Below are positions 12,162 to 44,944 of a DNA stretch of 64,000 bases, one piece after another. The notes beneath the pieces were generated by a model. That model saw only the letters and a program-made list of their open reading frames with translations. It was not told the DNA's origin and did no database searches. This DNA is from Candidatus Oleimmundimicrobium americanum (GTDB lineage Bacteria; Actinomycetota; Aquicultoria; UBA3085; Oleimmundimicrobiaceae), in the NCBI GenBank assembly GCA_002366545.1, contig DFBH01000074.1:1033-65032 (forward strand), written 5' to 3'. A program made the translations under genes and the position numbers. Within the stretch, counting starts at the first letter, position 1. Every line of letters begins with the position of its first letter.

Positions 12162-14858
12162 CTATTTACTCCCAACCTTATCTATTCTCACTGCACATAC
12201 CTTAAACTCGGGAATCTTTGATACCGGATCGAGTGCGGGGTTGGTGAGCATATTTATTGGAGATTCCTTGAAGTGGAAGGGCACAAATATGGTCCCCTTG
12301 GGTATGTGTGAAGTTATACGTGCTTTAACTTTTACTTTTCCTCGGCGCGAGGAAAGTTCGACCCAATCATTATCTTTTATTTTAAGTTTTTTAGCATCTA
12401 CAAAATTTATCTCAACTCTGGCTTCCTTGCAAACCTCATTAAGACCCATGGAACGCCTGGTCATCGTGCCGGTGTGAAAGTGATACAGAAGTCTTCCTGT
12501 GATTAGGATAAACGGATAATCTTTATCGGGCTGCTCAGCAGGTGCTTTGTATTCAACGGCATGAAACTTGCCCAGTCCCCGCGTAAATTTCGCTGTATGA
12601 AGAATCGGTGTCCCCTGATGCGTTGCATCCGGACACGGCCACTGAACACTTTCCTCGCTTACCCTTTCAAATATTATTCCACCATAGGTTGGGGTAATAC
12701 TTGCAATCTCATTGGTAATCTCACCAACCGCAGCGTAATTCATATCATAACCCATGGCCTTCGCCAAATTGGAGATTATCAGCCAATCCGGTCGGGAGTT
12801 GCCAACCGGGGCAATGGCCCTTCTTACTCTCTGAACTCTTCTTTCGGTATTTGTAAACGTTCCATCCTTCTCAGCAAAAGTAACTCCCGGCAACACAACG
12901 TCGGCAAATTCAGCCGTCTCAGTTAAAAACACATCCTGAACAACCAAAAAATCCAACTTCTTAAAAGCCTCTTTCACGTGGTTTAAATCGGGGTCCGAAA
13001 GCATCGGGTTTTCGCCCATAACATACATCGCTTTAACTTCGCCACGCAAAACAGCATCCATCATCTCGGTGGCAACTAACCCGGGCTTTTCTGGAAGCTT
13101 TACTCCCCAAACATCTTTACATTTCTTAATAATCCCCAAATCACAGATGTTTTGATATCCGCTCACACAACCGGGAAGTGCCCCCATATCACAAGCACCC
13201 TGAACGTTGTTTTGTCCGCGAAGCGGATTTACCCCCGTTCCCGGCCTCCCAATATTTCCGGTAAGCATCGCCAAATTGGCAACGGAGAGAACATTGTCTG
13301 TACCCGTAGTATGCTGAGTGATGCCCATGGAATAAAAGATTGCTCCTTTTTCGGCCGAAGCGAATAATCTTGCTGCCTCCCTTAAAGAATCAGCGGGAAT
13401 ACCTGAAATATTCTCAACTTCCTCGGGCGTATATTTTGAAACCGTCTTCTTTAACTCTTTATAATCTTCCGTTCGTTTATCGATAAAATCCTTATCTTCC
13501 AAGCCCTCTTCGATTATCACGTTCATAAGCCCGTTTAAGACGGCAACATCGGTTCCCGGTTTTTGTGAAAGCCACATATCAGCATACTCCGTCAGTCGAA
13601 TCTCTCTGGGATCAATTACGATAAGCTTTACCTCAAAATCGGAGACCGCCCTCTTCATCTCAAGAGCAACTATGGGATGATTTTCGGTGGTATTTGAGCC
13701 AATAACAAGAATCACATTGGCCTCGTGTATATCGGCGATAGAATTCGTCATCGCTCCGCTTCCAAATGCTTTGACCAGACCGGCCACGGTTGGAGCGTGT
13801 CACAAGCGAGCACAGTGGTCGATATTGTTTGTGCCAATCACCGCCCTCATAAATTTCTGCATCAGATAATTTTCTTCGTTGGTACACTTTGCTGAGGAAA
13901 GACCGGCAATCGCGTCAGCGCCGTGTTTTTTCTTTATCTTTGAAAACTTGTCTGCAACAGTTTTAATCGCCTCATCCCAAGAAACTTCAACAAGTTTCCC
14001 GTCCTTTCGAACCAACGGAGAAGTAAGCCTGTCGGGATGGTTCACAAAGTCATAACCAAAACGGCCTTTTACACAAGTATTCCCCTTATTCACACCGCTC
14101 TCGACATCGGCTGAAACACAAATAATCTCTCCGTTTTTGATTTGGAGTTCCAACTCACACCCACAACCACAATAAGGACAGACTGTCTTAACTTTCTCTG
14201 TCTCCCAAACTCGCCCCTTGTATCTGCTCATCTTCTCGGTTAAAGCACCGGTGGGGCAGGTTGATATACACTGTCCGCAAAGTTCACATTTTGTTTCAAT
14301 AAGTGACTTGTCATAAGGAGTTGTTACTACCGAATCAAAACCTCGATTTGCGAAAGTATACACTTTATTCTGTTGAATCTCTTCACAAATGCGAACGCAG
14401 CGACCGCAAAGGATGCACTTGTTTGGGTCTCTTTCAATCAAGGGATTATAGTCTTCTATGGTGTAGATATGTTTTTCACCTTTAAACCGATTCTCTTCTA
14501 TTCCCAATTCGTAAGCTAAATCTTGAAGTTGACATTGGCCGGCGCTCTCACAAGTCAAGCAACTTAACTCATGATCGGAAAGTAAAAGCTCAACTATCGT
14601 TCTCCGTATTTTATAGAGAGGAATGGTATTTGTCCTAACAGCCATTCCATCGCCAACCTTGGTTGCGCAGGCAGGCAAAAAATTCCTCGCCCCCTCAACT
14701 TCGACGAGACAAACTCTGCAGGCTCCATAAGACTTGAGCCGCGGATCGTGGCAGAGCGTTGGGATTTTTATTCCATTTTCTTTAGCAACCTCAAGTATGG
14801 TTTGACCTGGTTCAGCTTCAATTTTTTCTCCATTTATTGTCAAATTAATTTTAGACAT
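12162..14858 (-). CDS. fdhA: formate dehydrogenase alpha subunit, selenocysteine-containing (in-frame UGA at 13800-13802)
   Basis: The N-terminal ORF (13800..14858) ends '...[11 protein letters not shown]' at a TGA. The same frame continues '[21 protein letters not shown]...', which matches the FdhF-type 'CARV-U-HGPSVAGL' Sec active-site motif. The N-terminus has a NuoG-type 2Fe-2S plus 4Fe-4S region. The C-terminus has a molybdopterin oxidoreductase domain. Confidence 0.85.
13750..13799 (-). promoter_or_regulatory. putative bacterial SECIS element immediately 3' of the UGA-Sec codon
   Basis: The mRNA after UGA reads CACGCUCCAACCGUGGCCGGUCUGGUCAAAGCAUUUGGAAGCGGAGCG. It has CGCUCC/GGAGCG complementarity and a GGUCUG core resembling the fdhF SECIS apical region (from memory). 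The fold has not been computed. Confidence 0.4.
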
Positions 14859-25927: not shown

Positions 25928-25980
25928 AACCTCATGTGTCCCTGTTTTTGATTTCCATGTTCTTCTCTGCTCGAAAAACT

Positions 25981-28422: not shown

Positions 28423-28424
28423 CT

Positions 28425-28763: not shown

Positions 28764-28863
28764 TTATCTGGTTTCTTAGCTTCTTGGCTACGTAGCTACT
28801 TGGTTTCTAAGTTTCTAAGTCGCTATGTTTCTATGTCACTATGTCGCCAGTTCCCTTTACCCT
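28764..28863 (-). repeat. dispersed intergenic repeat element, copy 2 (between acsB and acsC)
   Basis: Reverse complement of copy 1 with internal word duplications (TTTCTAAG x2, CTATGT x3). GC hairpin at 28885-28906 then abuts the acsB stop. Confidence 0.7.
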
Positions 28864-28916
28864 CTCAACTTTCTATCTGCCATTCGCCCCGCCAGAGGCG
28901 GGCAGGCATCTACTAA

Positions 28917-31118
28917 TTAGAACATCGGTGGCATCTCTAAAGCCGGATGACCCACTTTCTGCAGATAAGCTATAACTTCTTCCTCTGTACTTGCTACAGT
29001 TTCATCCGCTATTTTGTCAAAAAAGTCCGGCATGCCTTCTTCTTTCGCACGTTTCTGAAGCTCAAAGCGAAGAACATCTTTTAGCTCTTTTGGCATCCAG
29101 ACAACCCTCTTTAAACCCCCATCAGCAGAAATAAACTTCTTGCTCGTTATATATTGACGACCTATCCCAATAAACCCGGGGAGCTGAACCCCACCGCCAA
29201 CAGTGCCAGCGAGGGTCGAGAACTTCATTCCGCAGGGTGTCATTCCGGGAAACTCCCTATTTACTATCATCACTCCATTTGCCATCGGAAGAACCGCCAC
29301 CACACACTCAAAACAACCACACGAAGTCATTGGTTCATCCATCATGGAGTAGGCATTAAAATGCTCGATGGCTTGGTTAGATTTTCCATACACAAATTTA
29401 TTGACGTTTTCCCACTGCCCTTTAACCGCATCTATAATCTCACCCTTTTTAACCGGTTGGTTGGGACCCGTTGGATTAATTTCATAAGCCGCCTTGCCAT
29501 CGAGCCAATTGTAAGCCCCACAAAGACCCAACCTTTCAGGGGTAATTATACACACGTGATTTGGGGCAAAGCTCTGACACAATGTGCAGGAATAAAAAGT
29601 ATCGACGCTTTCATCATTCATGCCCCGCACTCTTTCATCTCTGTGACAGTAGGTTTTTCTCGCTTCCTCCATCATCTGGTCAACCTTTTCAGGATCGGTG
29701 TAGATTGTAACTTGAACCTTATCCACAATTGCGGGGTAATCCGCGACAAGTTTTGCGATAAGTATCTTCCCAAAGTGATGAAATTTAAAACCAGCATTCT
29801 TTGCCTTTTTGCTAACTCTTGCCCATATAATGTCACGCTGGCCCATATGAAATATTCCCTCAGCACCATTAATCATGTGATGAACTTGTCTCTCCAGAAC
29901 CGATTCAAAATCCTCTTGCATCTTTCTGCCAGCAACATCTATCACTAAACCTATGGGAAGTCTTTCGCCCTCTTTGATATCATCTATATCTTTACCAACC
30001 ACCTCAACCTTGCCGTTTTCCACCTCATTCATCTCTTTCATCCTCAAGAATTCAAAGGCATGTGTCTTTGTTCCGCCAAATTCTACATAGGTATCTTCTC
30101 TCCTAATTCTCTCTCCCTCGAAAGCAGAGCCAAAAGAAACGGGAATATCAACTTTGGTAACTTGAATCTTAAGTCCCCTTACCTCAATTGCCCTTTCAAC
30201 CAGCTTATCGTGAGGAATGTTTGACACAACGTGCTCATAAGTACAGATGCCTGTTGGAAGAATCTGGGGAATATCGGTATCAGCAATAGTCGGAAAGCCA
30301 TAATTTACAGCCGCTACTGCTTGAGCATATTTTTCATCTTCGACCTCGCCTAAAGCCAGAACAAAGGCAAAAATTCTATTCTTGTTGTAAAGTAATACCT
30401 TTCTAAAGTCTCCGGGCTCAACCCCACCGAAGGAAAGCGCGGCGCGAGTTGCAAAACCCGCGGAAAAAACAGTCGCGGTAATATCCTTGCCGAAGGGAAC
30501 GAGACGGGTTTCCCAGCCCATCTGGATACCTTCCTCTTTGAGTTGCTCAGCCATGCTTTTTCCATCGGCCGAGGCCGACATGAAGACATAAATATTCTTC
30601 TCTTGAAGCTCTCGAGCAATCTTTACCGCTATTTCATTTGTGGGAGCTGCTCCAACGCATGCGGCAAAACCGGGCGCTGAGCCATCAACAAATTCGACAC
30701 CTCTTTCTCTCATTATCACGTCATCAGCCGCACCCAACCAAAGATTATCATCAGTTGGTTCCGATGACATTGTATAAGGAGGCGATTCTACATACTTAAT
30801 TGCTTCAATAATTTCATCCATAAAAAGCGTCGCCATACCGGCATCCAAAGCGGGAGCCAGATACGGTAGCCAGACTTTCTCTGACGGAACAGGAGGAAGT
30901 AAACTCTTGGAATATGCCAAAACCTTCTCCATGTCTCCAAGGGTGGAAACCGCCATCCCGGTAATTGCATAAATCACGGGCAGATAGTACCCTGTGTTTG
31001 GAAACTCCACCTTTTTGTCGGGTCCATATTTCTCTAAAGCTTCTTTAAGATTTTTTTCCGCCCTCATGGCTATCTTGTGGGCGCCCCTTATGGCAGCCGA
31101 AGCAATAATCTTAGACAA
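28917..31118 (-). CDS. acsB: acetyl-CoA synthase AcsB (CODH/ACS beta subunit, CdhC)
   Basis: 'DTFYSCTLCQSFAPNHVCIITPERLGLCGA' and 'MTSCGCFE...' A-cluster ligand motifs. Length is 733 aa. Confidence 0.9.
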   Translation of the reverse strand: MSKIIASAAIRGAHKIAMRAEKNLKEALEKYGPDKKVEFPNTGYYLPVIYAITGMAVSTLGDMEKVLAYSKSLLPPVPSEKVWLPYLAPALDAGMATLFMDEIIEAIKYVESPPYTMSSEPTDDNLWLGAADDVIMRERGVEFVDGSAPGFAACVGAAPTNEIAVKIARELQEKNIYVFMSASADGKSMAEQLKEEGIQMGWETRLVPFGKDITATVFSAGFATRAALSFGGVEPGDFRKVLLYNKNRIFAFVLALGEVEDEKYAQAVAAVNYGFPTIADTDIPQILPTGICTYEHVVSNIPHDKLVERAIEVRGLKIQVTKVDIPVSFGSAFEGERIRREDTYVEFGGTKTHAFEFLRMKEMNEVENGKVEVVGKDIDDIKEGERLPIGLVIDVAGRKMQEDFESVLERQVHHMINGAEGIFHMGQRDIIWARVSKKAKNAGFKFHHFGKILIAKLVADYPAIVDKVQVTIYTDPEKVDQMMEEARKTYCHRDERVRGMNDESVDTFYSCTLCQSFAPNHVCIITPERLGLCGAYNWLDGKAAYEINPTGPNQPVKKGEIIDAVKGQWENVNKFVYGKSNQAIEHFNAYSMMDEPMTSCGCFECVVAVLPMANGVMIVNREFPGMTPCGMKFSTLAGTVGGGVQLPGFIGIGRQYITSKKFISADGGLKRVVWMPKELKDVLRFELQKRAKEEGMPDFFDKIADETVASTEEEVIAYLQKVGHPALEMPPMF

Positions 31119-33072
31119 TTTCCAGATCCCTCCTCATCTCCATGTCGTAAAGCACCCTCTCTTTCTCACGATCTATCCCTAAAGCTTTTCTTTTTGCATC
31201 AATGTGTTTAATTATTGTCTTGGCCATCTTAAAGGGATCGGGTTCATAAAACCACTTGCCACCCGTCATCTCCTTAATATCTTTAAAAAGATAATCCGAC
31301 ACCACCTCACTATTGGCCGTCGGGAAAGAGACACCGAAACCGGTCGGAACTCCGCTGGAAACAAAATATTGACCAATGACTACAGCCTTCTCACTCATCC
31401 ACTCGGGAGCACAACCCGCAGCCGGCACTTCATTTAAATCCTCGCCAAGACCACCTTCTTTAACTATCTCCGAGGCAGCAATAAGAATCCGGCTGTTATC
31501 CACGCACGAACCGCAATGAAGCACGGGAGGAATACCCACTGCCTCGCAGACCTCACGCAAACCGGCACCCGCAAGCTCAGCGGCTTCAGGAATAAGCAAT
31601 CTTTCTTTTGCGCAGCTTATCGCGGCGCACCCGGTCACCAAAACAAGCACATTGTTTGCGATAAGTTCTTTAACTAAAGTAGTGTGAACATAATCATGTT
31701 TAACCCGAGGGTTGTTGCATCCCACAACACCGACAACCCCCTTTATCCTGCCATTGATTATATTATCGTTTAACGGCTTGTAAGAGGCACGGAACCGTCC
31801 ACCAAGCAAATACTTTATGGTCTCGTGAGAAAAACCCGCGATTAGGTCAATTTCTTCCTTAGGAATATCGACCCTCCCTCTTTTGGGATAATTTTTAATT
31901 GCCCGCCTGACGATATCTTTTGCAATTTTAAGAGCGTCGTGATGATTAAACTCTATATGTGTAGCACCCAAAATCTTACCCTTCGCTGAGGTGGTAATTA
32001 CCTCAGTGTGATAACATTTAGCCACAGTGGGCAGAGATTGCATGATACATTGAACATCGACAACCATGACATCAACCGCACCTGTGGCAATAGCCAGTTC
32101 CTGCTGTAAGAAGTTACCGGCTACCGGAACACCTTTGCGCATCAAAAGCTCGTTTGCCGTACAACATATGCCGGCAATATTTATACCCTTAGCGCCCACC
32201 TTTTTAGCCTCTTCGATCAGCTCGGAGTCACTTGCAGCAGCAACTATCATCTCCGAAAGCAACGGCTCATGACCGTGAACTATTACGTTAACTTGATTCT
32301 CTTTAAGAACTCCTAAATTCACCTTTGACCTGACTGGAGCGGGAACACCAAAGAGGATATCCTGTAATTCGGTTGCCATCATAGAGCCACCCCAACCATC
32401 GGCCAAAGAGGTTCGGCAACCATGAAGCAAGATGTTTTTATAGTCCTGGTCAACTCCCATGTGAGTTCGATGCATCGTTTCCACTATTTCGCGATCTACC
32501 CCTCGGGGAGATATGCCTTCTTTTCTCCAACGCTCTTGTCTTTTCTCCGGAGCCTGTTTTACAAAAATTATCTCACCTTGTTGCTTCCCCATCTCAGCAA
32601 GAGCTTTCTCGCCCAACTCCAGAGCTATCTGGTTTTTATCCTTACCCTCCATATTAATATCAAAAATTTTGGCCAACGCATGCAACTTTTCTTCATTCTT
32701 AATTTCATAACCAGGTGCCTCACCCTTCGCGGCAGCAATAAAAGTAAATATGACCTCTCTAGCGTGATCAGAGTGTGCGGCCGCGCCGGCGGCTATCATT
32801 CGAGCAAAATTTCTGGCCGCCACCGTAGAGGCAGTGGCACCACAAACTCCCGTCCTCGTCTCAGTTACCCTGCAAGGACCCATTGAGCACACTCTGCAAC
32901 AAGTCCCACCGGCGCCAAATGAACATGGCTTAAGGGAAGCAACCCTTTCAAAGACGGTCTCTGCCCCATCCTTTCTGGCCTTATCTATCATTTTGGCGCT
33001 TGCCGTGCAGCTGGTTTGCGTGCTTGCCGCAGGGTAAAATTTACTTTCTCCTTTTTTGCTTTGCTTTTTCAT
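31111..33072 (-). CDS. acsA: Ni-dependent carbon monoxide dehydrogenase catalytic subunit AcsA/CooS
   Basis: 'CSFGAGGTCCRVCSMGPCRV' B/D-cluster motif and overall CooS family architecture. Length is 653 aa. It overlaps acsB by 8 nt. Confidence 0.9.
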   Translation of the reverse strand: MKKQSKKGESKFYPAASTQTSCTASAKMIDKARKDGAETVFERVASLKPCSFGAGGTCCRVCSMGPCRVTETRTGVCGATASTVAARNFARMIAAGAAAHSDHAREVIFTFIAAAKGEAPGYEIKNEEKLHALAKIFDINMEGKDKNQIALELGEKALAEMGKQQGEIIFVKQAPEKRQERWRKEGISPRGVDREIVETMHRTHMGVDQDYKNILLHGCRTSLADGWGGSMMATELQDILFGVPAPVRSKVNLGVLKENQVNVIVHGHEPLLSEMIVAAASDSELIEEAKKVGAKGINIAGICCTANELLMRKGVPVAGNFLQQELAIATGAVDVMVVDVQCIMQSLPTVAKCYHTEVITTSAKGKILGATHIEFNHHDALKIAKDIVRRAIKNYPKRGRVDIPKEEIDLIAGFSHETIKYLLGGRFRASYKPLNDNIINGRIKGVVGVVGCNNPRVKHDYVHTTLVKELIANNVLVLVTGCAAISCAKERLLIPEAAELAGAGLREVCEAVGIPPVLHCGSCVDNSRILIAASEIVKEGGLGEDLNEVPAAGCAPEWMSEKAVVIGQYFVSSGVPTGFGVSFPTANSEVVSDYLFKDIKEMTGGKWFYEPDPFKMAKTIIKHIDAKRKALGIDREKERVLYDMEMRRDLEIV

Positions 33073-35618
33073 TTGGCGACTCCTTCTTTTGAAACACTCA
33101 CAGCAATTAACCGATCTTGCGGGCTCTTTAATTTTAAATCTATGCCATCGCTCGATAGAACACCTTGTTTATTGTGGCAACTGGGCATAAAAAACATCCC
33201 CTTGGGCAAGAAATCAAGTATCTTCGCCGAGGTTATAACCTTGCCCCGTCTCGATTTAACCGTGACTTTGCAGCCATCCTCAAGCCCCAAAGACGCAGCA
33301 TCATCTGAATTAAAAACAACATAATCTCCCATGTTTGGTTCAAGCTCAGATAGTTTGGAATTTTTTGTTCTAACTCCATCATAGAACCCAAACGTTGTTT
33401 CTCCAACAATTAAAGTATAAGGATATTTTTTATCAGGCTCTTCACCGGAAATCTTGGGCTCCACTAAGGTGAACTTATATGTATTTTTTTCGATTTTCTT
33501 TGGGATAGAAACCAGAGACTTTATTTCCTTGGCAATCTCCTTTTCAGAAGAGTAGTCCATGGTGTAATTTACTTTTTTGGACAAGGCGACTACCGTTTCC
33601 CAATCAGCTTGGACCAAAGGTTCAATGGCTGTCCTAACTTCTTTTGTCCGATATTCCATATTAACAATGGTCCCATTGCTTTCAGCTAAAGTTACGCCCG
33701 GCAACACAACATCGGCCAATTTTGCAGTTTCCGTCAAAAAGGTATCTTGAACCACCAGGAAATCTAAGGATGAAAACGACTTAGCCACGCTGGAAGAGTT
33801 GGGAAGTTGAGCAACCGGATCTGCCCCAATTATATACATTCCAAGAATGGATGAACCCATTCCGTCCAGCATCTCCTTAATAGAAAGTCCGGCTTCTTTG
33901 GAAAGCTTTACTCCCCAGGCCTTTTCAAAATCGCTCCCGGCTTCATCCGCTTTTCTTACACCCGGATAAAATTCAGCCAACGCTCCCATGTAAACCGTGC
34001 CCCACAGATTAGAAGAGAGAAGGCACGGAAGAACGCTCGCTTTGGTTTTACCTGTTAAAAGAGAGATGTCGGCAATCAATTCCATGGTTTGAGGGCTTAC
34101 CGTCTCGGCCCCAAAGATTATAACCGTCTTCTTCCCTTCGCCATAGAGCTTTGCGGCTTCCTTTAAAACATCTTTAGAAATTCCCGACTCTCTTTCCACC
34201 GTTTCCATCTTCAATTTGCCAAGAGATTTCTTTAAGTCCTCAAATTTACCGCATTTCTTGGCAAATTCTTCATCATAAACCTTACCGTCAAGTAACTCTT
34301 TCAAAAGCCCGCTTAAAACAAACTCATTGGAGCCGGCCATTGACTGAATGTGTATATCAGCTTTCTCAGAAATTTTTGTCCTTCCGGCATCTACAACTAC
34401 CAGCTTTGCCCCGTTTGAAAGCGCTCTTTTTACTGCTACACCCACGCGAGGATAGGCCACTGTAACATCCGCGTTTACGAGCAAGAGAGCATCGGCTTCT
34501 TCAATGTTTTCCATTGAAACAACGGCTCCATCTCCCAGCGCTTCGTATAAATCAACCAAAGCGGGAAAACCGAGAAGTCTGGCGGAACTATCAATGTTAT
34601 TCGTCCCAATCCCGGCCCTTAAAAACTTTTGGAATAAGTAAGCAACCTCGTTTGTGTTCCCCGCACCAATAAAACCACCAATCCTATTTGCCCCATGGGC
34701 TTTTCTTATATCAAGAAGACGCTCTGCCGCAAACTCAAAGGCCTCTTCGTAGGTGCTCTCAGTTAAAACCCCGTTCTTTTTAATTAAAGGCTTGGTAATT
34801 CGCTTGGAGCTTTCCACAAAATCCCATCCAAATCTGCCCTTTGCGCAAAGAAAATCTCCGAGGCTCTCGCCGGTTGCTCTCATAATCTGCCCATCTACGG
34901 TACCAAATACGAGGTCACAGCCACAACCGCAATAAGAGCAGACCGTTTTAGTCTCTTCCATCTCCCATTCTCGCCCACGAAAACGCCTATCAACTTCAAG
35001 CAGCGCACCAACGGGACAAACCGCAAGACAACTGCCGCAGAAATCACAGCCCGATTCCTGCAGGGGCTTATCCATTGGTGTCGCCACTTTGGTAACCATA
35101 CCCCGCTTTACAAAATCGATAACATCTGCCCCCTGTGTTTTGCAAATTCCCACACATCGTCCGCACAAAATACAGAGATTGTAATTCCTCTCTATAAAAG
35201 GATTGCTTCTGTCAATCTCGTAACCGGGATCCTTCATTGAAAAAGCGGTTTTCTCAATCCCAAGCTCATAAGCATACTTCTGAAGCTCACAAGCCCCGTT
35301 TTTATCACAACTCATACAATCACCGGGATGATTTGAAAGTATCAGCTCCAGAACAAAACGTCTGGCTTCCCGAACTTTCTCGGTATCAGTATCAATCACC
35401 ATTCCATCCTTAACTTTCCGAGCGCATGAGGCCACGAGCCCTTTGGCCCCCTCAATCTCGACCAAACAAACTCTACACGACCCCGTACTGGGCAAGCATT
35501 CACAATAACAGAGATGGGGGATGTCTATCCCCGCCATCTTGGCCGCCTGAATGATGAGTATCCCTTCAGGAACCTTTGCTTCTTTTCCATTTATCATTAC
35601 GGTGATTTGCTCACTCAA
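33069..35618 (-). CDS. NuoG/FdhA-like molybdopterin-oxidoreductase-family subunit lacking the catalytic Sec/Cys (Leu at that position)
   Basis: The N-terminus has 2Fe-2S plus 4Fe-4S motifs like fdhA. The central motif is 'GTNNIDSSARL-L-GFPALVDL', where fdhA has 'CARL-U-HAPTVAGL'. It overlaps acsA by 4 nt (ATGA). Confidence 0.7.
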   Translation of the reverse strand: MSEQITVMINGKEAKVPEGILIIQAAKMAGIDIPHLCYCECLPSTGSCRVCLVEIEGAKGLVASCARKVKDGMVIDTDTEKVREARRFVLELILSNHPGDCMSCDKNGACELQKYAYELGIEKTAFSMKDPGYEIDRSNPFIERNYNLCILCGRCVGICKTQGADVIDFVKRGMVTKVATPMDKPLQESGCDFCGSCLAVCPVGALLEVDRRFRGREWEMEETKTVCSYCGCGCDLVFGTVDGQIMRATGESLGDFLCAKGRFGWDFVESSKRITKPLIKKNGVLTESTYEEAFEFAAERLLDIRKAHGANRIGGFIGAGNTNEVAYLFQKFLRAGIGTNNIDSSARLLGFPALVDLYEALGDGAVVSMENIEEADALLLVNADVTVAYPRVGVAVKRALSNGAKLVVVDAGRTKISEKADIHIQSMAGSNEFVLSGLLKELLDGKVYDEEFAKKCGKFEDLKKSLGKLKMETVERESGISKDVLKEAAKLYGEGKKTVIIFGAETVSPQTMELIADISLLTGKTKASVLPCLLSSNLWGTVYMGALAEFYPGVRKADEAGSDFEKAWGVKLSKEAGLSIKEMLDGMGSSILGMYIIGADPVAQLPNSSSVAKSFSSLDFLVVQDTFLTETAKLADVVLPGVTLAESNGTIVNMEYRTKEVRTAIEPLVQADWETVVALSKKVNYTMDYSSEKEIAKEIKSLVSIPKKIEKNTYKFTLVEPKISGEEPDKKYPYTLIVGETTFGFYDGVRTKNSKLSELEPNMGDYVVFNSDDAASLGLEDGCKVTVKSRRGKVITSAKILDFLPKGMFFMPSCHNKQGVLSSDGIDLKLKSPQDRLIAVSVSKEGVAK

Positions 35619-35635
35619 CTCTTCTCCTCCTTTAG

Positions 35636-36157
35636 TTAAACGATTTCTATGGCATCGGCTTCACATACGGCCAAACACTCGCCACATTTGGTGCACTTTT
35701 TATTCTTAATGTAGTAGGGTTTATTGTCCGAAAGATACGAAACCATCTTCTCTCCCACAATTGCATCCTCAGGACAAACCTCTTTACAAGCTCCGCAAAT
35801 CGTACATTTCTCGGAATTTATCTGGTAACTCACAATAGTTTCACAAGATTTTTGAGCGCAATACTTGTCCTTTATGTGTTCTTCGTATTCATTTTTAGAT
35901 GAGGACAATGAGTCCTTTACAAAAGTAGCCGCGTCCTTACCCAGTTTGCATCGAGCAGTATCCACGATATAAGAAGATATTTCATCGAGCAAAACAATGT
36001 CTTCTTCTTCTCCTTTTCCATTTGTAATTCTCTCTAAAACATCGATCATTCGCACCGTTCCAAGCATACAGGGCAGGCACTTACCGCACATCTTATCCTT
36101 GGCAAATCCCTTTAAGAATTCAAGTACTATCAAGACCGGGCAACCATCGCTGCTCAT
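35636..36157 (-). CDS. stand-alone NuoF C-terminal-like FeS protein (N3-type 'CGKCLPC' motif + 2x[4Fe-4S] ferredoxin)
   Basis: 'MCGKCLPCMLGT' plus 'CTICGACKEVCP' and 'CTKCGECLAVCE'. It is colinear with the C-terminal 170 aa of the adjacent NuoF-like protein. Confidence 0.6.
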   Translation of the reverse strand: MSSDGCPVLIVLEFLKGFAKDKMCGKCLPCMLGTVRMIDVLERITNGKGEEEDIVLLDEISSYIVDTARCKLGKDAATFVKDSLSSSKNEYEEHIKDKYCAQKSCETIVSYQINSEKCTICGACKEVCPEDAIVGEKMVSYLSDNKPYYIKNKKCTKCGECLAVCEADAIEIV

Positions 36158-38052
36158 GTAGCCACCTCCTGCTTACCGGTAGGAGTAGATTTTCGTTCAA
36201 ACTGCCTCACAACACAACCGGTCGGGCATACTCCTATACAAGCCCCGCACTTTTCACAATATGATAAATCGATATAGAATCTGTCTCGCTCTTCCACAAT
36301 CGCGTCAAAAGCACACGCCTCCTTGCAAAGGCCGCAAAGAAGACAATCCTCCTCGTTTATCCGGTAATGGCCAAGTGCCGCACATTGCCCAGCCGGACAA
36401 TATTTATCCCTTATGTGAGCTTCATACTCATCTCTAAAATATTTAATGGTTGAAAGCACGGGATTGGGTGCACTCTTACCTAAACCACATAGAGCAGTTT
36501 CTTGAATATGTTTGCCGATGCTTTCCAAACGCTCAATATCTCCTTCTTCACCCTTGCCTTCGACAATTCTACTTAAAATCTCAAGCATCTCATGTGTCCC
36601 AATCCTGCAAGGCGGACATTTCCCGCAGGATTCCACCTGCGTGAAAGAGAGAAAATATCTTGCTAATTCAACCATGCAGTCGGACTCATCCATCACGACA
36701 AGTCCACCGGAGCCCATCATAGCCCCAGCTTCTGTTAATGAATCAAAGTCAACGAATAAATCCAAATATTCTTTTGGAAGACAACCGCCGCTAGGCCCTC
36801 CTGTCTGAACAGCTTTAAACTCTTTATCTCCCAAGATGCCACCGCCTATATCATAGACAATTTCCCGAATGGTTATTCCCATGGGAACCTCAATAAGACC
36901 AGTGTTCTTCACTTTTCCGGTAAGAGCAAATATTTTGGTTCCCGGAGAACCCTTCGTGCCTATGGAAGTGTACCAATCCGCTCCCTTAATTATTATTGGG
37001 GGAACATTAGCAAAGGTTTCAACATTATTTAACACGGTGGGTTTATCCCATAGCCCTCTCTCCACAGAACGAGGAGGAGTGGTTCGAGGCATTCCCCTTT
37101 TGCCCTCGATAGAAAACATGAGTGCCGTCGATTCTCCACAAATGAAAGCTCCCGCCCCACGTTTTATTTCCAAATCGAAATCAAAACCACTCCCAAGGAT
37201 ATTTTCACCCAAAAGACCAATCTCTCTCGCTTGGTTAATGGCTATTGTTAGATTATCAACCGCCAAGGGATATTCTTGTCTTACATATATAAATCCCTCT
37301 TTGCAATTGCCCAGAGCATAGGCTCCTATTATCATGCCTTCGATGACAGAATGAGGATCACCCTCCAAAACACTTCTATCCATAAAGGCCCCCGGGTCAC
37401 CTTCGTCACCGTTGCAAACAATATACTTTACGTCACCTTTTGTTCTTCGACCGCCTTCCCACTTTCTTCCCGCAGGAAAACCTGCCCCACCTCGACCTCT
37501 TAAATTAGATTTTTTAACCTCTTTTATCACTTCTTCCGGGGTCATATCATTTAAAACTTTTGCCAACGCTTCATAGCCACTGGCCACTATGTAATCTTCT
37601 ATATTGATAGGATCAACATGGCCACAATTCCTTAAAACTATCCTATGCTGTTTACCATAAAAGGAAATTTCCTCTTCTTTAACAGCAAGTTCGCCGATGA
37701 CAGGATCAACCACTTGCAACCGATCAACGACCTTGCCGCGATTTATTGTAAGGTCAACTATTTTCGCCGCATCAAATGGATCAACCTTTTGATAAAAAAC
37801 ATCTAAGGGCTCCACAATTACAACAGGACCTTTTTCGCACAATCCCTGGCAACCCGTGGGTCTTATCTCAAAATCGATGCCTTGTTTGACGGCTTCCGCT
37901 TTGAAGGCCTCAACAACCTTTTGTGCACCGGAAGCGCGGCATCCTGTCCCGCTGCAGACCCGAACTATCGTCTTTTTCTGCTTCGCTCTTTCGCTACATA
38001 TTTTTTTTCTCAAGACACTTAGTTCATTAGGGCTTTTAAACTTACTCATCAT
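36154..38052 (-). CDS. NuoF-like NAD(P)H-binding flavoprotein subunit with C-terminal 2x[4Fe-4S]
   Basis: 'NLRGRGGAGFPAGRKW', 'ESCGKCPPCRIGT', two C-terminal ferredoxin motifs. The probable start is ATG 38052 (RBS AAGGAAG, 8-nt overlap with the upstream nuoE-like stop) rather than 38082. Confidence 0.8.
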   Translation of the reverse strand: MMSKFKSPNELSVLRKKICSERAKQKKTIVRVCSGTGCRASGAQKVVEAFKAEAVKQGIDFEIRPTGCQGLCEKGPVVIVEPLDVFYQKVDPFDAAKIVDLTINRGKVVDRLQVVDPVIGELAVKEEEISFYGKQHRIVLRNCGHVDPINIEDYIVASGYEALAKVLNDMTPEEVIKEVKKSNLRGRGGAGFPAGRKWEGGRRTKGDVKYIVCNGDEGDPGAFMDRSVLEGDPHSVIEGMIIGAYALGNCKEGFIYVRQEYPLAVDNLTIAINQAREIGLLGENILGSGFDFDLEIKRGAGAFICGESTALMFSIEGKRGMPRTTPPRSVERGLWDKPTVLNNVETFANVPPIIIKGADWYTSIGTKGSPGTKIFALTGKVKNTGLIEVPMGITIREIVYDIGGGILGDKEFKAVQTGGPSGGCLPKEYLDLFVDFDSLTEAGAMMGSGGLVVMDESDCMVELARYFLSFTQVESCGKCPPCRIGTHEMLEILSRIVEGKGEEGDIERLESIGKHIQETALCGLGKSAPNPVLSTIKYFRDEYEAHIRDKYCPAGQCAALGHYRINEEDCLLCGLCKEACAFDAIVEERDRFYIDLSYCEKCGACIGVCPTGCVVRQFERKSTPTGKQEVAT

Positions 38053-38557
38053 TCTCTTCCTTTTTATTTTTAAGAATTGCAATTATCTTCTTCGGATTTT
38101 TCTCTCTTGAAACTTCTTCGTTTACCACCACAACAGGGGCAAGGGCACAACACCCCACACAACTTACCGTTTCAAGCGTGAACTCAAAGTCGTCGGTCGT
38201 CTCGCCGGCTTTTATGCCAAGCTCTTCTTCTAGTCCTTCAAGAATTATCTTTGAACCGCGAACGTGACAAGCCGTGCCCGTGCAAACTTTAATTATATTT
38301 TTGCCTCGCGGAGTGAAATAAAAATGCGCGTAAAACGAGGCCACTCCATAAACGTGAGCCAGAGATAAATCAAATTCATCAGCGATGACTCCAATCGCTT
38401 CTCCGGGCAAAAAACCAAATTCTTTCTGAACATCTTGAAGAGCGTGTACAAGCACCCCTCTTCTGCCTTTATATTTTTTTAAAAGCTCACAAACGCGACC
38501 CGTATCTACTTGAACTTTTACATCTTCCTTCTTGGTATTGCATGCGCAACCGCACAT
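38042..38557 (-). CDS. NuoE-like [2Fe-2S] subunit with N-terminal 'MCGCAC' Cys cluster
   Basis: 'CTGTACHVRGS...VSCVGCCALAPV' is the NuoE motif. Confidence 0.75.
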   Translation of the reverse strand: MCGCACNTKKEDVKVQVDTGRVCELLKKYKGRRGVLVHALQDVQKEFGFLPGEAIGVIADEFDLSLAHVYGVASFYAHFYFTPRGKNIIKVCTGTACHVRGSKIILEGLEEELGIKAGETTDDFEFTLETVSCVGCCALAPVVVVNEEVSREKNPKKIIAILKNKKEENDE

Positions 38558-38572
38558 CGCTATCCCTCCAAA

Positions 38573-39511
38573 TTAGCCCATGAGCTCGTCTATGAGTTTT
38601 TTTGTTAGTTTAACTGCTTCCGGATGTCTCATTACCAGGATATCGCCTCCAGCGATTAACATGCTGGCAGCGGTCATAAACTCCCAGAGAATTCCCCTCT
38701 TTTCAGGATCCCCCCAGCTTGGTTCATCTTCGGTCTTTGCTTCTTTAGCCTTCCAAACTTCTCTGCCAAAATCGCAAAACATCGGCATTTGAGTCATCTC
38801 ATCATTTTGCTGAAGAGCTGCAAGCCTTAACCTTTCCATGATTGAATAGACATACTCCAACCCATAGCCCAGGGCTGCACCGCTGGGATCCATTACCAAA
38901 TGATCGGCATCCAATCCCAACTGCGTCATTAAAATGTTCAACTGTTTGGCCATGTTTACATCTATTGGAGAAAGCCCTGAAACATTGTGTTTATAACCAA
39001 TGGCCGCAGCCGTAATTTGTTTATAGTTATCTTCCTGAGAGGGGCCCAATATAACCTTGTGCCCTTCCGCAACCTCGGCAACTTTTTTCAAAAGTTCCCC
39101 GTCTTTCTCAATGTTTCCACTACCATAAATACATATGGGAATGGAAACAGCCTCGATGACCGCCTTGACGGTTTCAGCAGCTTTTGCCGAATCTCTGTTT
39201 TCACCGTTTGGATCGGTGCTTATAAGCCGCAAAGAAATCATCTCTGCCCCATATTCATCCTGGCATTTTTTGGCCCAAGCAACGGGGTCGTTTAACACAT
39301 CCTTAAATGGCTCAAGAACAACGCTCGACCAATTATCCGGAGCTACATCATAAACTTCCATAGCAATAATCGGCTTTTTGGGCATCTCGCCTTCGAAAAA
39401 ATGAAATGGGAGCGTGGTTTCCCCACCAACCGCAACTTGATTGCCTTCCTTGCCCACAACAACCTCACGAATTTTTCCTTGATATGTATCTACTGGTGCC
39501 TGAAATGCCAT
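38573..39511 (-). CDS. acsD: corrinoid iron-sulfur protein small subunit AcsD (CdhD-like)
   Basis: TIM-barrel CFeSP delta signature. The start is the ATG at 39511, preceded by AAAGGAGATAGAA. The ORF-track start at 39553 is an unsupported extension. Confidence 0.8.
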   Translation of the reverse strand: MAFQAPVDTYQGKIREVVVGKEGNQVAVGGETTLPFHFFEGEMPKKPIIAMEVYDVAPDNWSSVVLEPFKDVLNDPVAWAKKCQDEYGAEMISLRLISTDPNGENRDSAKAAETVKAVIEAVSIPICIYGSGNIEKDGELLKKVAEVAEGHKVILGPSQEDNYKQITAAAIGYKHNVSGLSPIDVNMAKQLNILMTQLGLDADHLVMDPSGAALGYGLEYVYSIMERLRLAALQQNDEMTQMPMFCDFGREVWKAKEAKTEDEPSWGDPEKRGILWEFMTAASMLIAGGDILVMRHPEAVKLTKKLIDELMG

Positions 39512-39555
39512 TTCTATCTCCTTTCGAAACCAAATTTTTATATCTTTCCGCAACT

Positions 39556-40404
39556 TTATGCCTGCATTCTAGCCGCTTTAATTGTATTCTTTAAAAGCAT
39601 TGTTATCGTCATCGGCCCAACACCACCCGGAACGGGCGTTATGGCAAACGCTTTCTTGCTCGCACTTTCAAACTCTACATCACCCGCAAGCTTTCCGTTT
39701 TCAAGACGGTTTACGCCAACATCAATGACAACAGCTCCCTCTTTGAGCATATCTCCCTTTATCATCTCCGGTCTTCCCACAGCCGCAATAACGACATCGG
39801 CCCTTCTTGTATGAAAGCTCAAGTCCTTCGTCTTCGAATGGCAAATGGTAACCGTCGCGCTCTTAGATAACAACATCAGCGATATCGGTTTGCCAACAAT
39901 ATTGCTCCTGCCGACCACCACCGCCTCTTTCCCCTTCAAATCTATTCCTGAATGCTCAAGCAAAACCATTATTCCGTGCGGAGTGCAGGGAAGAAACGTA
40001 TCTTCTCCTATAACCAGCTTCCCAATATTTTCTGGATGGAAACCATCCACATCCTTGGCGGAGTCTATGGCATAAAGAACTTTTTTCTCATCAATTTGTT
40101 TGGGCAATGGAAGTTGCACCAGTATTCCATTTATTTTGTCATCTTTATTTAGCCTCGCCATTAAATTTAGCAATTCTTCCTCGGAGGTGTCTTCCGGCAA
40201 ATCATATTTCTCCGAATAAATACCAACTTGAGCACATCCTTTTTCTTTTTGACCAACGTAAACTTTGGAGGCAGGATCTTTCCCAACAATAACAACCGCC
40301 AAACCGGGCACAATGCCTTCTTTTTTCAATTGTGCTACCTCATCTACCATCTTTTGTCGTATCGAGGCAGCAATGGCCTTCCCATCGATAATCTTTGCCG
40401 ACAT
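39556..40404 (-). CDS. folD: bifunctional methylene-THF dehydrogenase / methenyl-THF cyclohydrolase FolD
   Basis: 'IIDGKAIA...GLAVVIVG.DPAS.VYV..K...C...GI...LP' is a classic FolD N-terminus. Confidence 0.9.
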   Translation of the reverse strand: MSAKIIDGKAIAASIRQKMVDEVAQLKKEGIVPGLAVVIVGKDPASKVYVGQKEKGCAQVGIYSEKYDLPEDTSEEELLNLMARLNKDDKINGILVQLPLPKQIDEKKVLYAIDSAKDVDGFHPENIGKLVIGEDTFLPCTPHGIMVLLEHSGIDLKGKEAVVVGRSNIVGKPISLMLLSKSATVTICHSKTKDLSFHTRRADVVIAAVGRPEMIKGDMLKEGAVVIDVGVNRLENGKLAGDVEFESASKKAFAITPVPGGVGPMTITMLLKNTIKAARMQA

Positions 40405-40425
40405 TTCGTTGCTCCTTTCAAATTT

Positions 40426-41184
40426 TTAAAGCTTAAGCTCACCCATTAAATTCGAGATTGCTCGAAAAGCGCCGGAGTCATCGGGCAATTCAAAAATCGG
40501 CCCTTTTTCCAAATCTATCTCCAAAATCCGCTCGTCCAGAGGCACAATCCCCAGAAGCTCAAGGTTTAATCTCTCAATTTCATGTTTTAAAACCGGATTC
40601 AGCTCAATATCAGGAACACGATTTATTATTAAATGTGTTTTTTTGACTTTAAGCTCAAGTTCTCTGGCCAAATCCTTAATTTTAGCAGCCGCCCGAATTG
40701 CTCGTGGACTCGTATCCGAAACCAGCAAAAGGTGATCAACTTCATAGGTCGTTCGTCTGCTTAAGTGCTCCATTCCCGCCTCGTTATCCATAATCACGTA
40801 GCGGTAATTTTTCGCCAATATATCCATATACTTTCTTAAAATATTGTTTACGTAGCAATAACAACCGGGCCCTTCTGGCCGGCCCATAACCAATAAATCA
40901 AAACCATTCGCCTCAACCAAAATTTCTTGAACTTTAAGCTCTAAATAAGCATCCTTGGGCATCCCCGGTGGAATTGAGCCAACATTTTTGGTTATATCTT
41001 CTCTCACGCCCCCGATTGAATTTTCCACTTCTACACCGAGAACCTCATTTAAATTGGAATTCGCATCCGCATCCACAGCCAAAATTGGAGTCATCTTTTT
41101 CTCCAGCAAATACTTAATTATCAAGCCGCTTACGGTTGTTTTCCCGGTGCCACCTTTACCCGCAACCGCTATAGTAGAAGTCAT
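40426..41184 (-). CDS. cooC: CooC/AcsF-type nickel-insertion ATPase
   Basis: 'IAVAGKGGTGKTT' deviant Walker A. Length is 252 aa. Confidence 0.8.
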   Translation of the reverse strand: MTSTIAVAGKGGTGKTTVSGLIIKYLLEKKMTPILAVDADANSNLNEVLGVEVENSIGGVREDITKNVGSIPPGMPKDAYLELKVQEILVEANGFDLLVMGRPEGPGCYCYVNNILRKYMDILAKNYRYVIMDNEAGMEHLSRRTTYEVDHLLLVSDTSPRAIRAAAKIKDLARELELKVKKTHLIINRVPDIELNPVLKHEIERLNLELLGIVPLDERILEIDLEKGPIFELPDDSGAFRAISNLMGELKL

Positions 41185-41198
41185 AAATTCACCACTTA

Positions 41199-43118: not shown

Positions 43119-43136
43119 TTAAATACTCTTTTCTTT

Positions 43137-44831: not shown

Positions 44832-44944
44832 AATAAAACCCCTCCCCCGGTTGTTGAGATAAACGTGAACATGAATAAATTTATTTTAGTTTGACTACTC
44901 AAGAATAACAACAATTTTGCCTTCAACGATAATAATTTAAAGGT

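What the first reader, a model, noticed from the sequence alone, without database searches (positions are those of the whole stretch)
33069..38557. NuoE-NuoF-(NuoF-C-terminal paralogue)-NuoG-like module embedded in the CODH/ACS operon, with a catalytically 'dead' molybdopterin subunit
Directly upstream of acsA, and translationally coupled to it by an ATGA overlap, are genes for a NuoE-like 2Fe-2S protein, a NuoF-like flavoprotein, a stand-alone duplicate of the NuoF C-terminal FeS region, and an 849-aa NuoG/FdhA-like protein. In the last of these the Sec/Cys ligand position carries Leu (SSARL-L-GFPAL), while the genuine seleno-FdhA in the same window has U. A NuoEFG-type diaphorase co-transcribed with CODH/ACS suggests a dedicated NAD(P)H:ferredoxin electron module feeding CODH. 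This is a variant of the flavin-based bifurcating HydABC/HytA-E/Fdh modules of acetogens. The separated NuoF C-terminal fragment is unusual.
Basis: partly seen in the sequence, partly recalled or inferred. Interest (0 to 1): 0.55.

Follow-up and report, generated by a model that had tools for sequence, protein, structure and literature searches.

The report
Bifurcation-type flavoprotein module wired to CODH/ACS
Four genes for an NADH-binding iron-sulfur flavoprotein module, one subunit being a formate dehydrogenase that has lost its active site, sit next to the CO dehydrogenase gene in this genome and in bacteria of at least five phyla, which suggests an unstudied way of supplying electrons to the key CO2-fixing enzyme of the Wood-Ljungdahl pathway.

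Summary
On the minus strand, between acsD and acsA, lie four tightly packed genes. They encode a NuoE-like protein, a NuoF-like protein, a stand-alone copy of the NuoF C-terminus ("Fc", 173 aa) and an 849-aa FdhA/NuoG-like protein ("G'"). G' overlaps acsA by ATGA. It carries Leu-Gly where the window's true FdhA has Sec-His.

G' belongs to a monophyletic clade. That clade keeps all five Fe-S sites but has lost the Sec/Cys, His and Arg catalytic residues and the pterin-binding motifs. It is still under purifying selection.

The NuoF-like subunit is of the electron-bifurcating HydB/StnB/NfnB type. Fc is a conserved subunit, not a gene fragment.

The E-F-Fc-G' block lies next to acsA in 42 of 44 informative loci. 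These come from Actinomycetota, Chloroflexota, Bacillota (including cultured Ammonifex), Bipolaricaulota and Nitrospirota, and show two different gene orders.

The best reading is a Bfu-type module that docks on CODH/ACS and couples CO2/CO redox to NAD(H) and ferredoxin. This rests on inference and has no biochemical support. Only a different, Firmicutes-only "Codh-Bfu" has been proposed before. I rate it a new variant of a known kind, of moderately high interest.

The parts
38042..38557 (-). NuoE/HydC/BfuC-like thioredoxin-fold [2Fe-2S] subunit (E1), 171 aa
   Evidence: PF01257 E 1.2e-48. NCBIfam NuoE NF005722 scores 148.9 bits, above its cut-off of 141. It is 42% identical to the second NuoE-like gene of the window. 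An RBS and ATG lie 15 nt after the acsD stop.
36154..38082 (-). NuoF/HydB/BfuB-like flavoprotein (F1). The ORF is 642 aa, but the likely start is the ATG at 38052 or 38049 (about 632 aa). Domains: N-terminal [2Fe-2S] thioredoxin-like domain, FMN/NAD(P)H site, SLBB, N3-type [4Fe-4S], a His/Cys (zinc-type) hinge motif and a C-terminal 2x[4Fe-4S] domain
   Evidence: Pfam domains; start codon context. The best PDB matches cover the full length and are B subunits of electron-bifurcating enzymes: 7t2r_B, 804 bits; 8a6t_B; 7q4v_B; 8oh5_B; 9n5u_B; 7p5h_B. NuoF and FdsB match only residues 160-558 at under 390 bits. F1 is 56% identical to F2 of the window.
35636..36157 (-). Fc: stand-alone paralogue of the BfuB C-terminal region, 173 aa. 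It has an N3-type [4Fe-4S] four-helix domain, the His/Cys hinge motif and a 2x[4Fe-4S] ferredoxin domain with a family-specific 8-residue insert. Its start overlaps the F1 stop (ATGA)
   Evidence: Pfam NADH_4Fe-4S E 4e-21 plus Fer4 domains. Fc is 43% identical to F1 residues 464-619. All Cys and His ligands are invariant in orthologues from several phyla. About 20 stand-alone representatives at the 50% identity level occur among 1.84 billion proteins.
33069..35618 (-). G': FdhA/NuoG-like BfuA-type subunit, 849 aa. It has [2Fe-2S], a His-ligated [4Fe-4S], 2x[4Fe-4S] and the FeS-0 [4Fe-4S], followed by a degenerate molybdopterin-oxidoreductase fold. Leu349-Gly350 replace Sec/Cys-His and the catalytic Arg is lost
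   Evidence: G' scores below the NCBIfam cut-offs for both Fdh-alpha (443.9 < 666.25) and NuoG (371.3 < 470.05). The AF2 model (pLDDT 84) is closest to FdsA-type FDH (TM 0.86). dN/dS of the Mo-like domain is 0.10-0.14.
31111..33072 (-). acsA: Ni-CODH subunit of CODH/ACS, 653 aa. This is the inferred catalytic partner of the module. Its ATG overlaps the G' stop (ATGA)
   Evidence: PF03063 E 1e-178; TIGR01702 scores 652.8 bits, above its cut-off of 478; junction sequence; PDB matches.
28917..31118 (-). acsB: acetyl-CoA synthase subunit, 733 aa. It overlaps the acsA stop
   Evidence: PF19436, PF03598 and PF18537.
38573..39553 (-). acsD (small corrinoid Fe-S protein subunit), the gene immediately upstream of the module. 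Upstream of it, fhs, RACo, cooC and folD run up to 44831 with intergenic gaps of 21 nt or less
   Evidence: PF03599; for the upstream genes.
12162..14858 (-). Comparator, not part of the module: the genuine selenocysteine FdhA (in-frame TGA in ARL-U-HAP). Its own NuoE2 (17938-18453) and NuoF2 (15325-17142) lie upstream

Best explanation
The four genes encode a Bfu-type (HydABC/StnABC/NfnABC-like) flavin and iron-sulfur electron-transfer module that works with the CODH subunit AcsA of CODH/ACS.

Shown by sequence:
- E1 (BfuC-like) and F1 (BfuB-like) carry the full cofactor-binding set of the bifurcating core. This set comprises FMN/NAD(P)H, [2Fe-2S] in E1, and in F1 an N-terminal [2Fe-2S], an N3-type [4Fe-4S], a His/Cys hinge and a C-terminal 2x[4Fe-4S].
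- G' is a BfuA-type wire with five Fe-S sites. Its formate-dehydrogenase domain has lost its catalytic and pterin-binding residues but is still under selection.
- Fc adds three further [4Fe-4S] sites.
- The module has no catalytic site of its own for a third substrate.
- It is almost always encoded next to acsA.

Inferred:
- The degenerate FdhA domain serves as a docking scaffold, as in NuoG, StnC and the HydA of NiFe-HydABCSL. G' and/or Fc connect the CODH D/B-cluster chain to the flavin site.
- The complex then couples the CO2/CO couple to NAD(P)+/NAD(P)H and ferredoxin together. In the oxidative direction, CO from acetyl-CoA cleavage, present at very low effective concentration, reduces NAD+ and ferredoxin by bifurcation.
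- In the reductive direction, NADH and reduced ferredoxin together reduce CO2 to CO, which is channelled to ACS. Half of the electrons for the most reductant-demanding step of the pathway would then come from NADH rather than from costly reduced ferredoxin.
For: Domain content.

Bifurcating-type BfuB: F1 gives full-length best matches to the B subunits of HydABC, NiFe-HydABCSL, StnABC and NfnABC. Schut et al. 2022 define the extra BfuB clusters as the mark of bifurcating members. StnB has the same cofactor list.

Dead pterin domain: the Sec/Cys, His and Arg columns are retained in 0% of 55 clade members. By contrast, invariant columns are 92% retained in the N-terminal Fe-S domain and 87% in FeS-0. 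The dead clade and the true Fdh clade are reciprocally monophyletic. All 20 Fe-S ligands are invariant in 45 sequences. dN/dS is 0.10-0.14.

Synteny: E-F-Fc-G'-acsA occurs in 8 of 8 distant loci, with varying flanks. The order acsB-acsA-E-F-Fc-G' occurs in Nitrospirota-type loci. In the metagenome scan, 32 loci show AcsA adjacent to the module and only 2 informative loci lack it.

Translational coupling in the window.

The low-CO thermodynamic argument for a bifurcating CODH was made by Schut et al. for 'Codh-Bfu'.
Against: - No biochemical, proteomic or structural datum links these proteins to CODH. Gene adjacency is not proof of a complex.
- Two loci (L052, L066) carry the module without an adjacent acsA.
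- CO2/CO (-520 mV) is more negative than ferredoxin, so CO oxidation does not need bifurcation at standard conditions.
- With E' of -280 mV for NAD and -500 mV for ferredoxin (values), confurcation would hold CO only about four orders of magnitude below CO2 (my Nernst estimate). It is untested whether ACS can run on so little CO.
- Most metagenome loci are from one phylum and so are not independent.
- The role of Fc is unknown.
Confidence: 0.6

Rival explanations
1. The module is a simple, non-bifurcating NAD(P)H:CODH oxidoreductase. It would pass electrons between NAD(P)H and CODH without involving ferredoxin, playing the role proposed for the FNOR partners of CooS.
For: CO is reducing enough to reduce NAD+ directly (potentials). 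The module has an NAD(P)H/FMN site and an Fe-S wire next to acsA. Non-bifurcating NuoEFG-type modules exist in FdsABG and complex I.
Against: F1 has the N-terminal [2Fe-2S] and C-terminal 2x[4Fe-4S] domains that the non-bifurcating NuoF and FdsB lack. It also matches bifurcating B subunits twice as well as it matches those. In the reductive direction, NADH alone (-320 mV) cannot drive CO2 reduction to CO.
Confidence: 0.15
2. The module is functionally independent of CODH. It would serve another Wood-Ljungdahl enzyme, such as the Hdr-MetFV methylene-THF reductase or the Sec-FdhA, or act as a general NAD(P)H/ferredoxin redox balancer. On this view it sits beside acsA only because pathway genes cluster together.
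For: The window is a 33-kb Wood-Ljungdahl supercluster in which many redox genes are neighbours. Two loci carry the module without acs genes beside it. Earlier genome papers treated such nuoEF genes as general NADH modules.
Against: The module has no third-substrate site, so it needs a partner. The gene that stays adjacent while the other flanks change (cooC, acsD, acsE or fhs upstream; acsB present or absent) is always acsA, in two gene orders and five phyla. The window's FdhA has its own NuoE2/NuoF2 pair.
Confidence: 0.15
3. G' is an active molybdo- or tungsto-enzyme with a non-canonical metal environment, as in arsenite oxidase where no protein ligand binds Mo. The module would then be a second formate dehydrogenase or CO2 reductase.
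For: The fold is fully FdhA-like (TM 0.86 to FdsA). The FeS-0 cluster is retained, and in this protein so is the neighbouring Lys. Public annotations call clade members 'formate dehydrogenase alpha subunit'.
Against: The ligand position varies across the clade (L, F, H, Y, S, T, A, N, D). His and Arg are lost in all members. The pterin-contact motifs GSNxxExHP, MGxTQH and TGR..H are retained at 0-2%. Members of 670-750 aa lack domain IV. G' scores below the curated Fdh-alpha cut-off.
Confidence: 0.03

Closest known systems
Bfu family of electron-bifurcating enzymes: HydABC, NiFe-HydABCSL, StnABC, NfnABC and HylABC-Fdh (Schut et al. 2022, PMC9304861)
   Same: The BfuC and BfuB cofactor sets are the same, and BfuB matches over its full length. 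The BfuA-type N-terminal Fe-S chain is present. The architecture resembles 'Type 3': a BfuA with all five clusters plus extra subunits that carry the catalytic site.
   Different: No catalytic third-substrate domain is encoded in the module itself. There is an extra stand-alone paralogue of the BfuB C-terminus. The inferred partner is the bifunctional CODH/ACS. None of these features is described for any characterised member.
'Codh-Bfu', predicted from genomes by Schut et al. 2022 (four sequences, e.g. Acetohalobium arabaticum and Clostridium cellulovorans)
   Same: The idea is the same: a Bfu core uses CO/CO2 as its third substrate, possibly to work at very low CO.
   Different: That system is Type 2, with a short BfuA lacking the A3 and A5 clusters. 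Its monofunctional CODH and two Fe-S subunits are encoded between bfuB and bfuA. It is found only in Firmicutes and was proposed for CO oxidation or detoxification. Here BfuA is long, with five clusters and a dead FdhA domain. Fc is present, the neighbour is acsA of CODH/ACS, and five phyla are involved.
Degenerate molybdopterin domains used as scaffolds: NuoG/Nqo3 of complex I, StnC of Sporomusa ovata, HydA of NiFe-HydABCSL, QrcB, and the Dehalococcoides Fdh-like CISM protein
   Same: In each, an FdhF-like fold has no catalytic function and is kept as a structural or docking domain. For StnC this is stated explicitly in PMC10482914. NuoG and 7t2r_A appear among the sequence and fold matches.
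   Different: G' is much closer to true FdsA-type formate dehydrogenases (39% identity to the window's FdhA, TM 0.86) than to NuoG. It forms its own clade and falls below the curated NuoG cut-off.
NAD-dependent and bifurcating formate dehydrogenases (FdsABG; HylABC-FdhF2)
   Same: Subunit types are the same (NuoE-, NuoF- and FdhA-like). These are the best structural and sequence matches of G'. The window itself holds such an enzyme with Sec.
   Different: The active site is missing, so G' cannot be filed as a formate dehydrogenase.

Membership tests
Bfu (HydABC-type) electron-bifurcating enzyme family | BfuB flavoprotein with an FMN/NAD(H) site, plus the extra clusters that non-bifurcating NuoF and FdsB lack (N-terminal [2Fe-2S], C-terminal 2x[4Fe-4S]) | tested here: met
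   All domains and Cys motifs are present. Full-length best matches are to HydB, StnB and NfnB.
Bfu (HydABC-type) electron-bifurcating enzyme family | BfuC: a NuoE-like [2Fe-2S] subunit encoded alongside BfuB | tested here: met
   PF01257 E 1e-48. The gene overlaps the start of F1.
Bfu (HydABC-type) electron-bifurcating enzyme family | BfuA-type subunit with the N-terminal [2Fe-2S], a His-ligated [4Fe-4S] and further [4Fe-4S] clusters | tested here: met
   C37/48/51/65, H97/C101/104/110, C149/152/155/159, C191/194/197/201 and C227/230/234/258 are invariant in 45 sequences.
Bfu (HydABC-type) electron-bifurcating enzyme family | A catalytic site for a third substrate, located in BfuA or in associated subunits | tested here: inconclusive
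   There is none within the module, since the pterin site is degenerate. CODH (AcsA) is inferred as the partner from synteny only.
Bfu (HydABC-type) electron-bifurcating enzyme family | Tightly coupled activity that depends on both ferredoxin and NAD(H) | not testable with these tools
   This needs enzyme assays.
Codh-Bfu as defined by Schut et al. 2022 (Type 2) | A short BfuA lacking the A3 and A5 clusters, with the CODH genes placed between bfuB and bfuA | tested here: not met
   G' has all five cluster sites. The gene order is E-F-Fc-G'-acsA or acsA-E-F-Fc-G'.
Formate dehydrogenase alpha subunit (FdhA/FdsA, TIGR01591) | A Sec or Cys ligand to Mo/W, with the adjacent His and the catalytic Arg | tested here: not met
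   Leu-Gly replaces U/C-His, and LRGQNN is replaced by CLLSSN. Retention across the clade is 0%.
Formate dehydrogenase alpha subunit (FdhA/FdsA, TIGR01591) | Score above the curated family cut-off | tested here: not met
   443.9 bits against a cut-off of 666.25.
Formate dehydrogenase alpha subunit (FdhA/FdsA, TIGR01591) | Overall fold of the FdsA type | tested here: met
   Foldseek TM 0.86 to 9ktl_A, 7vw6_A and 6tg9_A.
NuoG of respiratory complex I (TIGR01973) | Score above the curated cut-off, and a gene context with nuoA-N | tested here: not met
   371.3 bits against a cut-off of 470.05. No membrane-arm nuo genes are in the window.

The most novel reading that the evidence does not exclude
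CODH/ACS in these lineages is itself an electron-bifurcating (or confurcating) enzyme. The E-F-Fc-G' module would be a permanent part of the complex. CO2 reduction to CO for acetyl-CoA synthesis would then draw half of its electrons from NADH, and acetyl-CoA cleavage would yield NADH plus reduced ferredoxin. [quoted passage not shown] A sharper variant is that Fc, a copy of the ferredoxin-facing arm of BfuB, hard-wires CODH onto the low-potential branch. Soluble ferredoxin would then be bypassed at this step.
Probability: 0.3. Interest if true: 0.85.

Novelty: new variant of a known kind. Interest (0 to 1): 0.62.

Why it matters
Reduction of CO2 to CO (E0' about -520 mV) is the step of the Wood-Ljungdahl pathway that needs the strongest reductant. 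How it is paid for largely sets the ATP yield of acetogens, sulfate reducers and syntrophic acetate oxidisers living near the thermodynamic limit.

A bifurcation-type flavoprotein module built into acs operons points to a supply route not included in current models of the pathway. It occurs in Actinomycetota, Chloroflexota, Bacillota, Bipolaricaulota and Nitrospirota.

The idea can be tested, because Ammonifex degensii KC4 and A. thiophilus are in culture and carry the module.

There is also a practical consequence for annotation. Public annotations label the dead subunit 'formate dehydrogenase alpha subunit' or 'NuoG'. This can produce false calls of formate dehydrogenase or complex I in reconstructions from metagenome-assembled genomes.

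Tried and rejected
- **Recent pseudogene hypothesis for G'.** Rejected. dN/dS is 0.10-0.14 in the Mo-like domain and the clade is old and monophyletic.
- **Fc as a truncated or split nuoF.** Rejected. It has its own start codon and RBS context, invariant ligands, a family-specific insert and a conserved C-terminus in several phyla. Some weaker hits (P0134, P0136, P0137) do look like NuoF fragments and were left out of the profile.
- **Selenocysteine read-through joining the two HdrA-like ORFs.** The ORFs are in different frames, so this was rejected.
- **Promoter and terminator scans of 28000-45500.** Counts were at chance level, so the scans were uninformative.
- **Literature.** Ten searches found only passing remarks that nuoEF or nuoEFG genes lie near CODH/ACS or other Wood-Ljungdahl genes, plus the different 'Codh-Bfu' proposal. 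Jiao et al. 2021 (ISME J, PMC8443620) named this lineage, as far as I recall. It is not held in the library, so I could not check it.
- **Fold search.** It added nothing beyond the sequence comparison.
- **Motif regexes for Fc.** They were too strict, so I relied on protein lengths and the alignment instead.
- **Genome-collection scan with a single protein.** It returned only two close relatives. The wider picture came from the protein database, the contig look-ups and one metagenome scan.
Full report
**What is in the window.**
All genes of interest are on the minus strand. They form a Wood-Ljungdahl supercluster of about 33 kb. The gene order is as follows:
- fhs (43137-44831), RACo (41199-43118), cooC (40426-41184), folD (39556-40404), acsD (38573-39553)
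- the four-gene module (33069-38557)
- acsA (31111-33072), acsB (28917-31118), acsC (27073-28422)
- two HdrA-like genes, metV, metF, hdrC, hdrB, an unassigned ORF, cooC
- a second NuoE (17938-18453), acsE, a second NuoF (15325-17142), a CBS protein, and a selenocysteine FdhA (12162-14858).

Gaps between genes from fhs to acsB are 21 nt or less, or the genes overlap. The G'/acsA junction is an ATGA overlap preceded by AAGGAG. The other module junctions are overlaps or 15-17 nt spacers with GGAGG-type sites. The closest public relatives are metagenome-assembled genomes (MAGs) of Actinomycetota. The best-named one is Candidatus Oleimmundimicrobium, class Ca. Aquicultoria.

**Check of the observation.**
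- E1 is a NuoE-type [2Fe-2S] protein.
- F1 has an N-terminal thioredoxin-like [2Fe-2S] domain, the 51-kDa FMN domain, SLBB, the N3 [4Fe-4S] domain and a C-terminal 2x[4Fe-4S] domain.
- Fc (173 aa) consists only of the N3-type domain and the 2x[4Fe-4S] domain. It is 43% identical to F1 residues 464-619.
- G' (849 aa) has the NuoG/FdhA N-terminal cluster domains, the Molybdop_Fe4S4 cluster, the molybdopterin-oxidoreductase domain and a partial dinucleotide-binding domain.

In G' the motif reads IDSSARL-LG-FPAL. The window's own FdhA reads IDHCARL-U-H-APT, with an in-frame TGA.

**The pterin subunit is dead, as a family trait.**
Among the 120 best database matches of G', 54 lack the Cys/Sec-His pair, as G' itself does. 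They carry L, F, H, Y, S, T, A, N or D at the ligand position. With G' they form a 55-sequence set, which a neighbour-joining tree separates cleanly from the 67 true formate dehydrogenases, one of them the window's own FdhA.

I took the columns that are at least 95% invariant in the true enzymes and measured how often the dead clade keeps them:

| Region | Retention in dead clade |
|---|---|
| N-terminal Fe-S domain | 92% |
| FeS-0 region | 87% |
| Pterin domains II/III | 47% |
| Domain IV | 40% |

The ligand, the following His, the catalytic Arg of LRGQNN, and the motifs GSNxxExHP, MGxTQH and TGR..H are kept at 0-2%. Some members are only 711-751 aa, and a Nitrospirota form is about 672 aa without domain IV. 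All twenty Fe-S ligands are invariant in 45 clade members.

G' falls below the curated NCBIfam cut-offs for both Fdh-alpha and NuoG. Even so, the degenerate domain is under purifying selection: dN/dS is 0.10-0.14 against two relatives, compared with 0.05 in the Fe-S domain. The AF2 model (pLDDT 84) keeps the FdsA-type fold, with TM 0.86. So the domain is retained as a structure, not as a catalyst. [quoted passage not shown]

**The flavoprotein is of the bifurcating type.**
Schut et al. 2022 distinguish bifurcating Bfu enzymes from non-bifurcating NuoEFG-like modules by the additional clusters in BfuB. F1 has them. Its best matches in the PDB cover residues 40-625 and are the B subunits of enzymes shown to bifurcate:
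- NiFe-HydABCSL (804 bits)
- T. kivui, A. woodii and T. maritima HydB
- StnB
- two NfnB proteins.

NuoF and FdsB match only the core, residues 160-558, at under 390 bits.

**Fc is a conserved extra subunit.**
Orthologues of 170-200 aa occur in every locus examined. They keep C6, C24, C27, C30, C70, H94, C100, C105 and two CxxCxxCxxxC motifs. They also share an 8-residue insert (Y-[LS]-x-D-N-x-P-Y) and the C-terminal AIE[LIV]V. A profile search of 1.84 billion representatives finds about twenty stand-alone clusters at the 50% level before full-length HydB/NuoF proteins begin to appear. No characterised Bfu enzyme that I read about has such a subunit.

**Link to CODH.**
I looked up the contigs of eight divergent G' homologues. 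They were Ammonifex thiophilus, MAGs of Chloroflexota, Bacillota and Actinomycetota, one from a Bipolaricaulota-type subclade, and three metagenome contigs. All eight show E-F-Fc-G'-acsA. The flanking genes differ: upstream is cooC, acsD, acsE or fhs plus an HMA-domain gene, and in one locus acsB does not follow acsA.

A metagenome scan with the Fc profile returned 80 loci out of 290 found. Most have a second order, acsC-acsB-acsA-E-F-Fc-G', with the short G'. Database names place these in Nitrospirota and Thermodesulfovibrionales. Thirty-two of the loci show AcsA beside the module. Only two loci that extend far enough, L052 and L066, do not. In both, the module is flanked by unrelated genes. 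Counting the window and L001, 42 of 44 informative loci have acsA as the neighbour.

These loci are not phylogenetically independent. However, the association holds across five phyla and two gene orders, while every other neighbour changes. Ammonifex degensii KC4 also carries G'.

**Most likely mechanism.**
- Shown: the module has the cofactor sites of a Bfu core and a long Fe-S wire, has no third-substrate site, and is almost always encoded next to acsA.
- Inferred: it docks on CODH/ACS, with the dead FdhA domain as scaffold. It links the CODH cluster chain to the flavin site, so that CO2/CO is coupled to NAD(P)(H) and ferredoxin together.

Using the potentials listed by Schut et al. (CO -520 mV; NAD -280 mV and ferredoxin -500 mV under physiological conditions), the mid-point of the NADH and ferredoxin pair is about -390 mV. 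By the Nernst relation this corresponds to a CO/CO2 ratio of roughly 10^-4 (my estimate).

This fits acetyl-CoA cleavage, where CO is scarce and ferredoxin reduction would otherwise stall. It is the same argument Schut et al. made for Codh-Bfu. It could also allow CO2 reduction partly at the expense of NADH, provided ACS can work at very low CO; that is not known. An alternative wiring, in which Fc places CODH on the low-potential arm, cannot be excluded.

**Comparison with what is known.**
The module meets every testable criterion of the Bfu family except the third-substrate site, for which there is only synteny evidence. It does not meet the definition of the published 'Codh-Bfu', which has a short BfuA, CODH genes between bfuB and bfuA, and occurs in Firmicutes only. 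It is neither a formate dehydrogenase nor a NuoG by defining residues or curated thresholds.

Genome papers have drawn or mentioned nuo and fdh genes beside CODH/ACS without analysing them. I found no functional description in ten full-text searches. One relevant paper, Jiao et al. 2021, could not be read.

**Verdict.**
The finding is broader than stated. It is a conserved five-component unit (E, F, Fc, G', AcsA) spread over at least five phyla, not a peculiarity of one operon. I class it as a new variant of a known kind (the Bfu family) and rate its interest at 0.62. The function remains an inference until a complex or a coupled activity is demonstrated.

Noticed in passing
L013-L017, L024, L027, L036-L039 and other loci: There is a second, apparently much more abundant arrangement, acsC-acsB-acsA-E-F-Fc-G'. 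Its G' is shorter (about 670-690 aa), has Tyr at the Sec/Cys position ('SLY[SA]D') and lacks domain IV. Database names place it in Nitrospirota/Thermodesulfovibrionales, and JGI annotates it as NuoG.
   Followed up: partly
L014-L017, L044, L053, L056, L060, L075: Some Nitrospirota-type loci carry two or three tandem copies of the BfuB-like gene, and sometimes a second Fc, between E and G'.
   Followed up: no
window 15325-18453 (- strand): In the window's second NuoEF module, which belongs to the Sec-FdhA, the methyltransferase gene acsE (17143-17922) lies between nuoE2 and nuoF2. A CBS-domain gene (14874-15302) lies between nuoF2 and fdhA.
   Followed up: no
window 48608-50386 (- strand): A 592-aa protein combines an [FeFe]-hydrogenase large-subunit-like domain and Fe-S motifs with a C-terminal GGDEF diguanylate cyclase domain. 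It may be a redox- or H2-sensing signalling protein.
   Followed up: no
window 19532-20590 (- strand): A 352-aa ORF between hdrB and cooC, inside the Wood-Ljungdahl cluster, has no Pfam or NCBIfam match.
   Followed up: partly
window 24296-27054 (- strand): The HdrA-like function is split into two adjacent genes of 357 aa and 543 aa, in different reading frames. This is not a selenocysteine read-through. The same split is seen in L001.
   Followed up: partly
proteins P0020, P0024-P0027, P0031, P0042, P0065; P0305 and others: Source annotations name members of the dead clade 'formate dehydrogenase alpha subunit' or 'NuoG'. This could inflate counts of formate dehydrogenase or complex I in metabolic reconstructions.
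   Followed up: no
proteins P0156 and P0159: Two proteins contain Fc-like sequence as part of a fusion. One is a GltD/NfnB-like NAD(P)H flavoprotein with an Fc-like ferredoxin C-terminus. The other is a NuoF-like protein with two NADH_4Fe-4S domains. These may hint at the partners of Fc.
   Followed up: no
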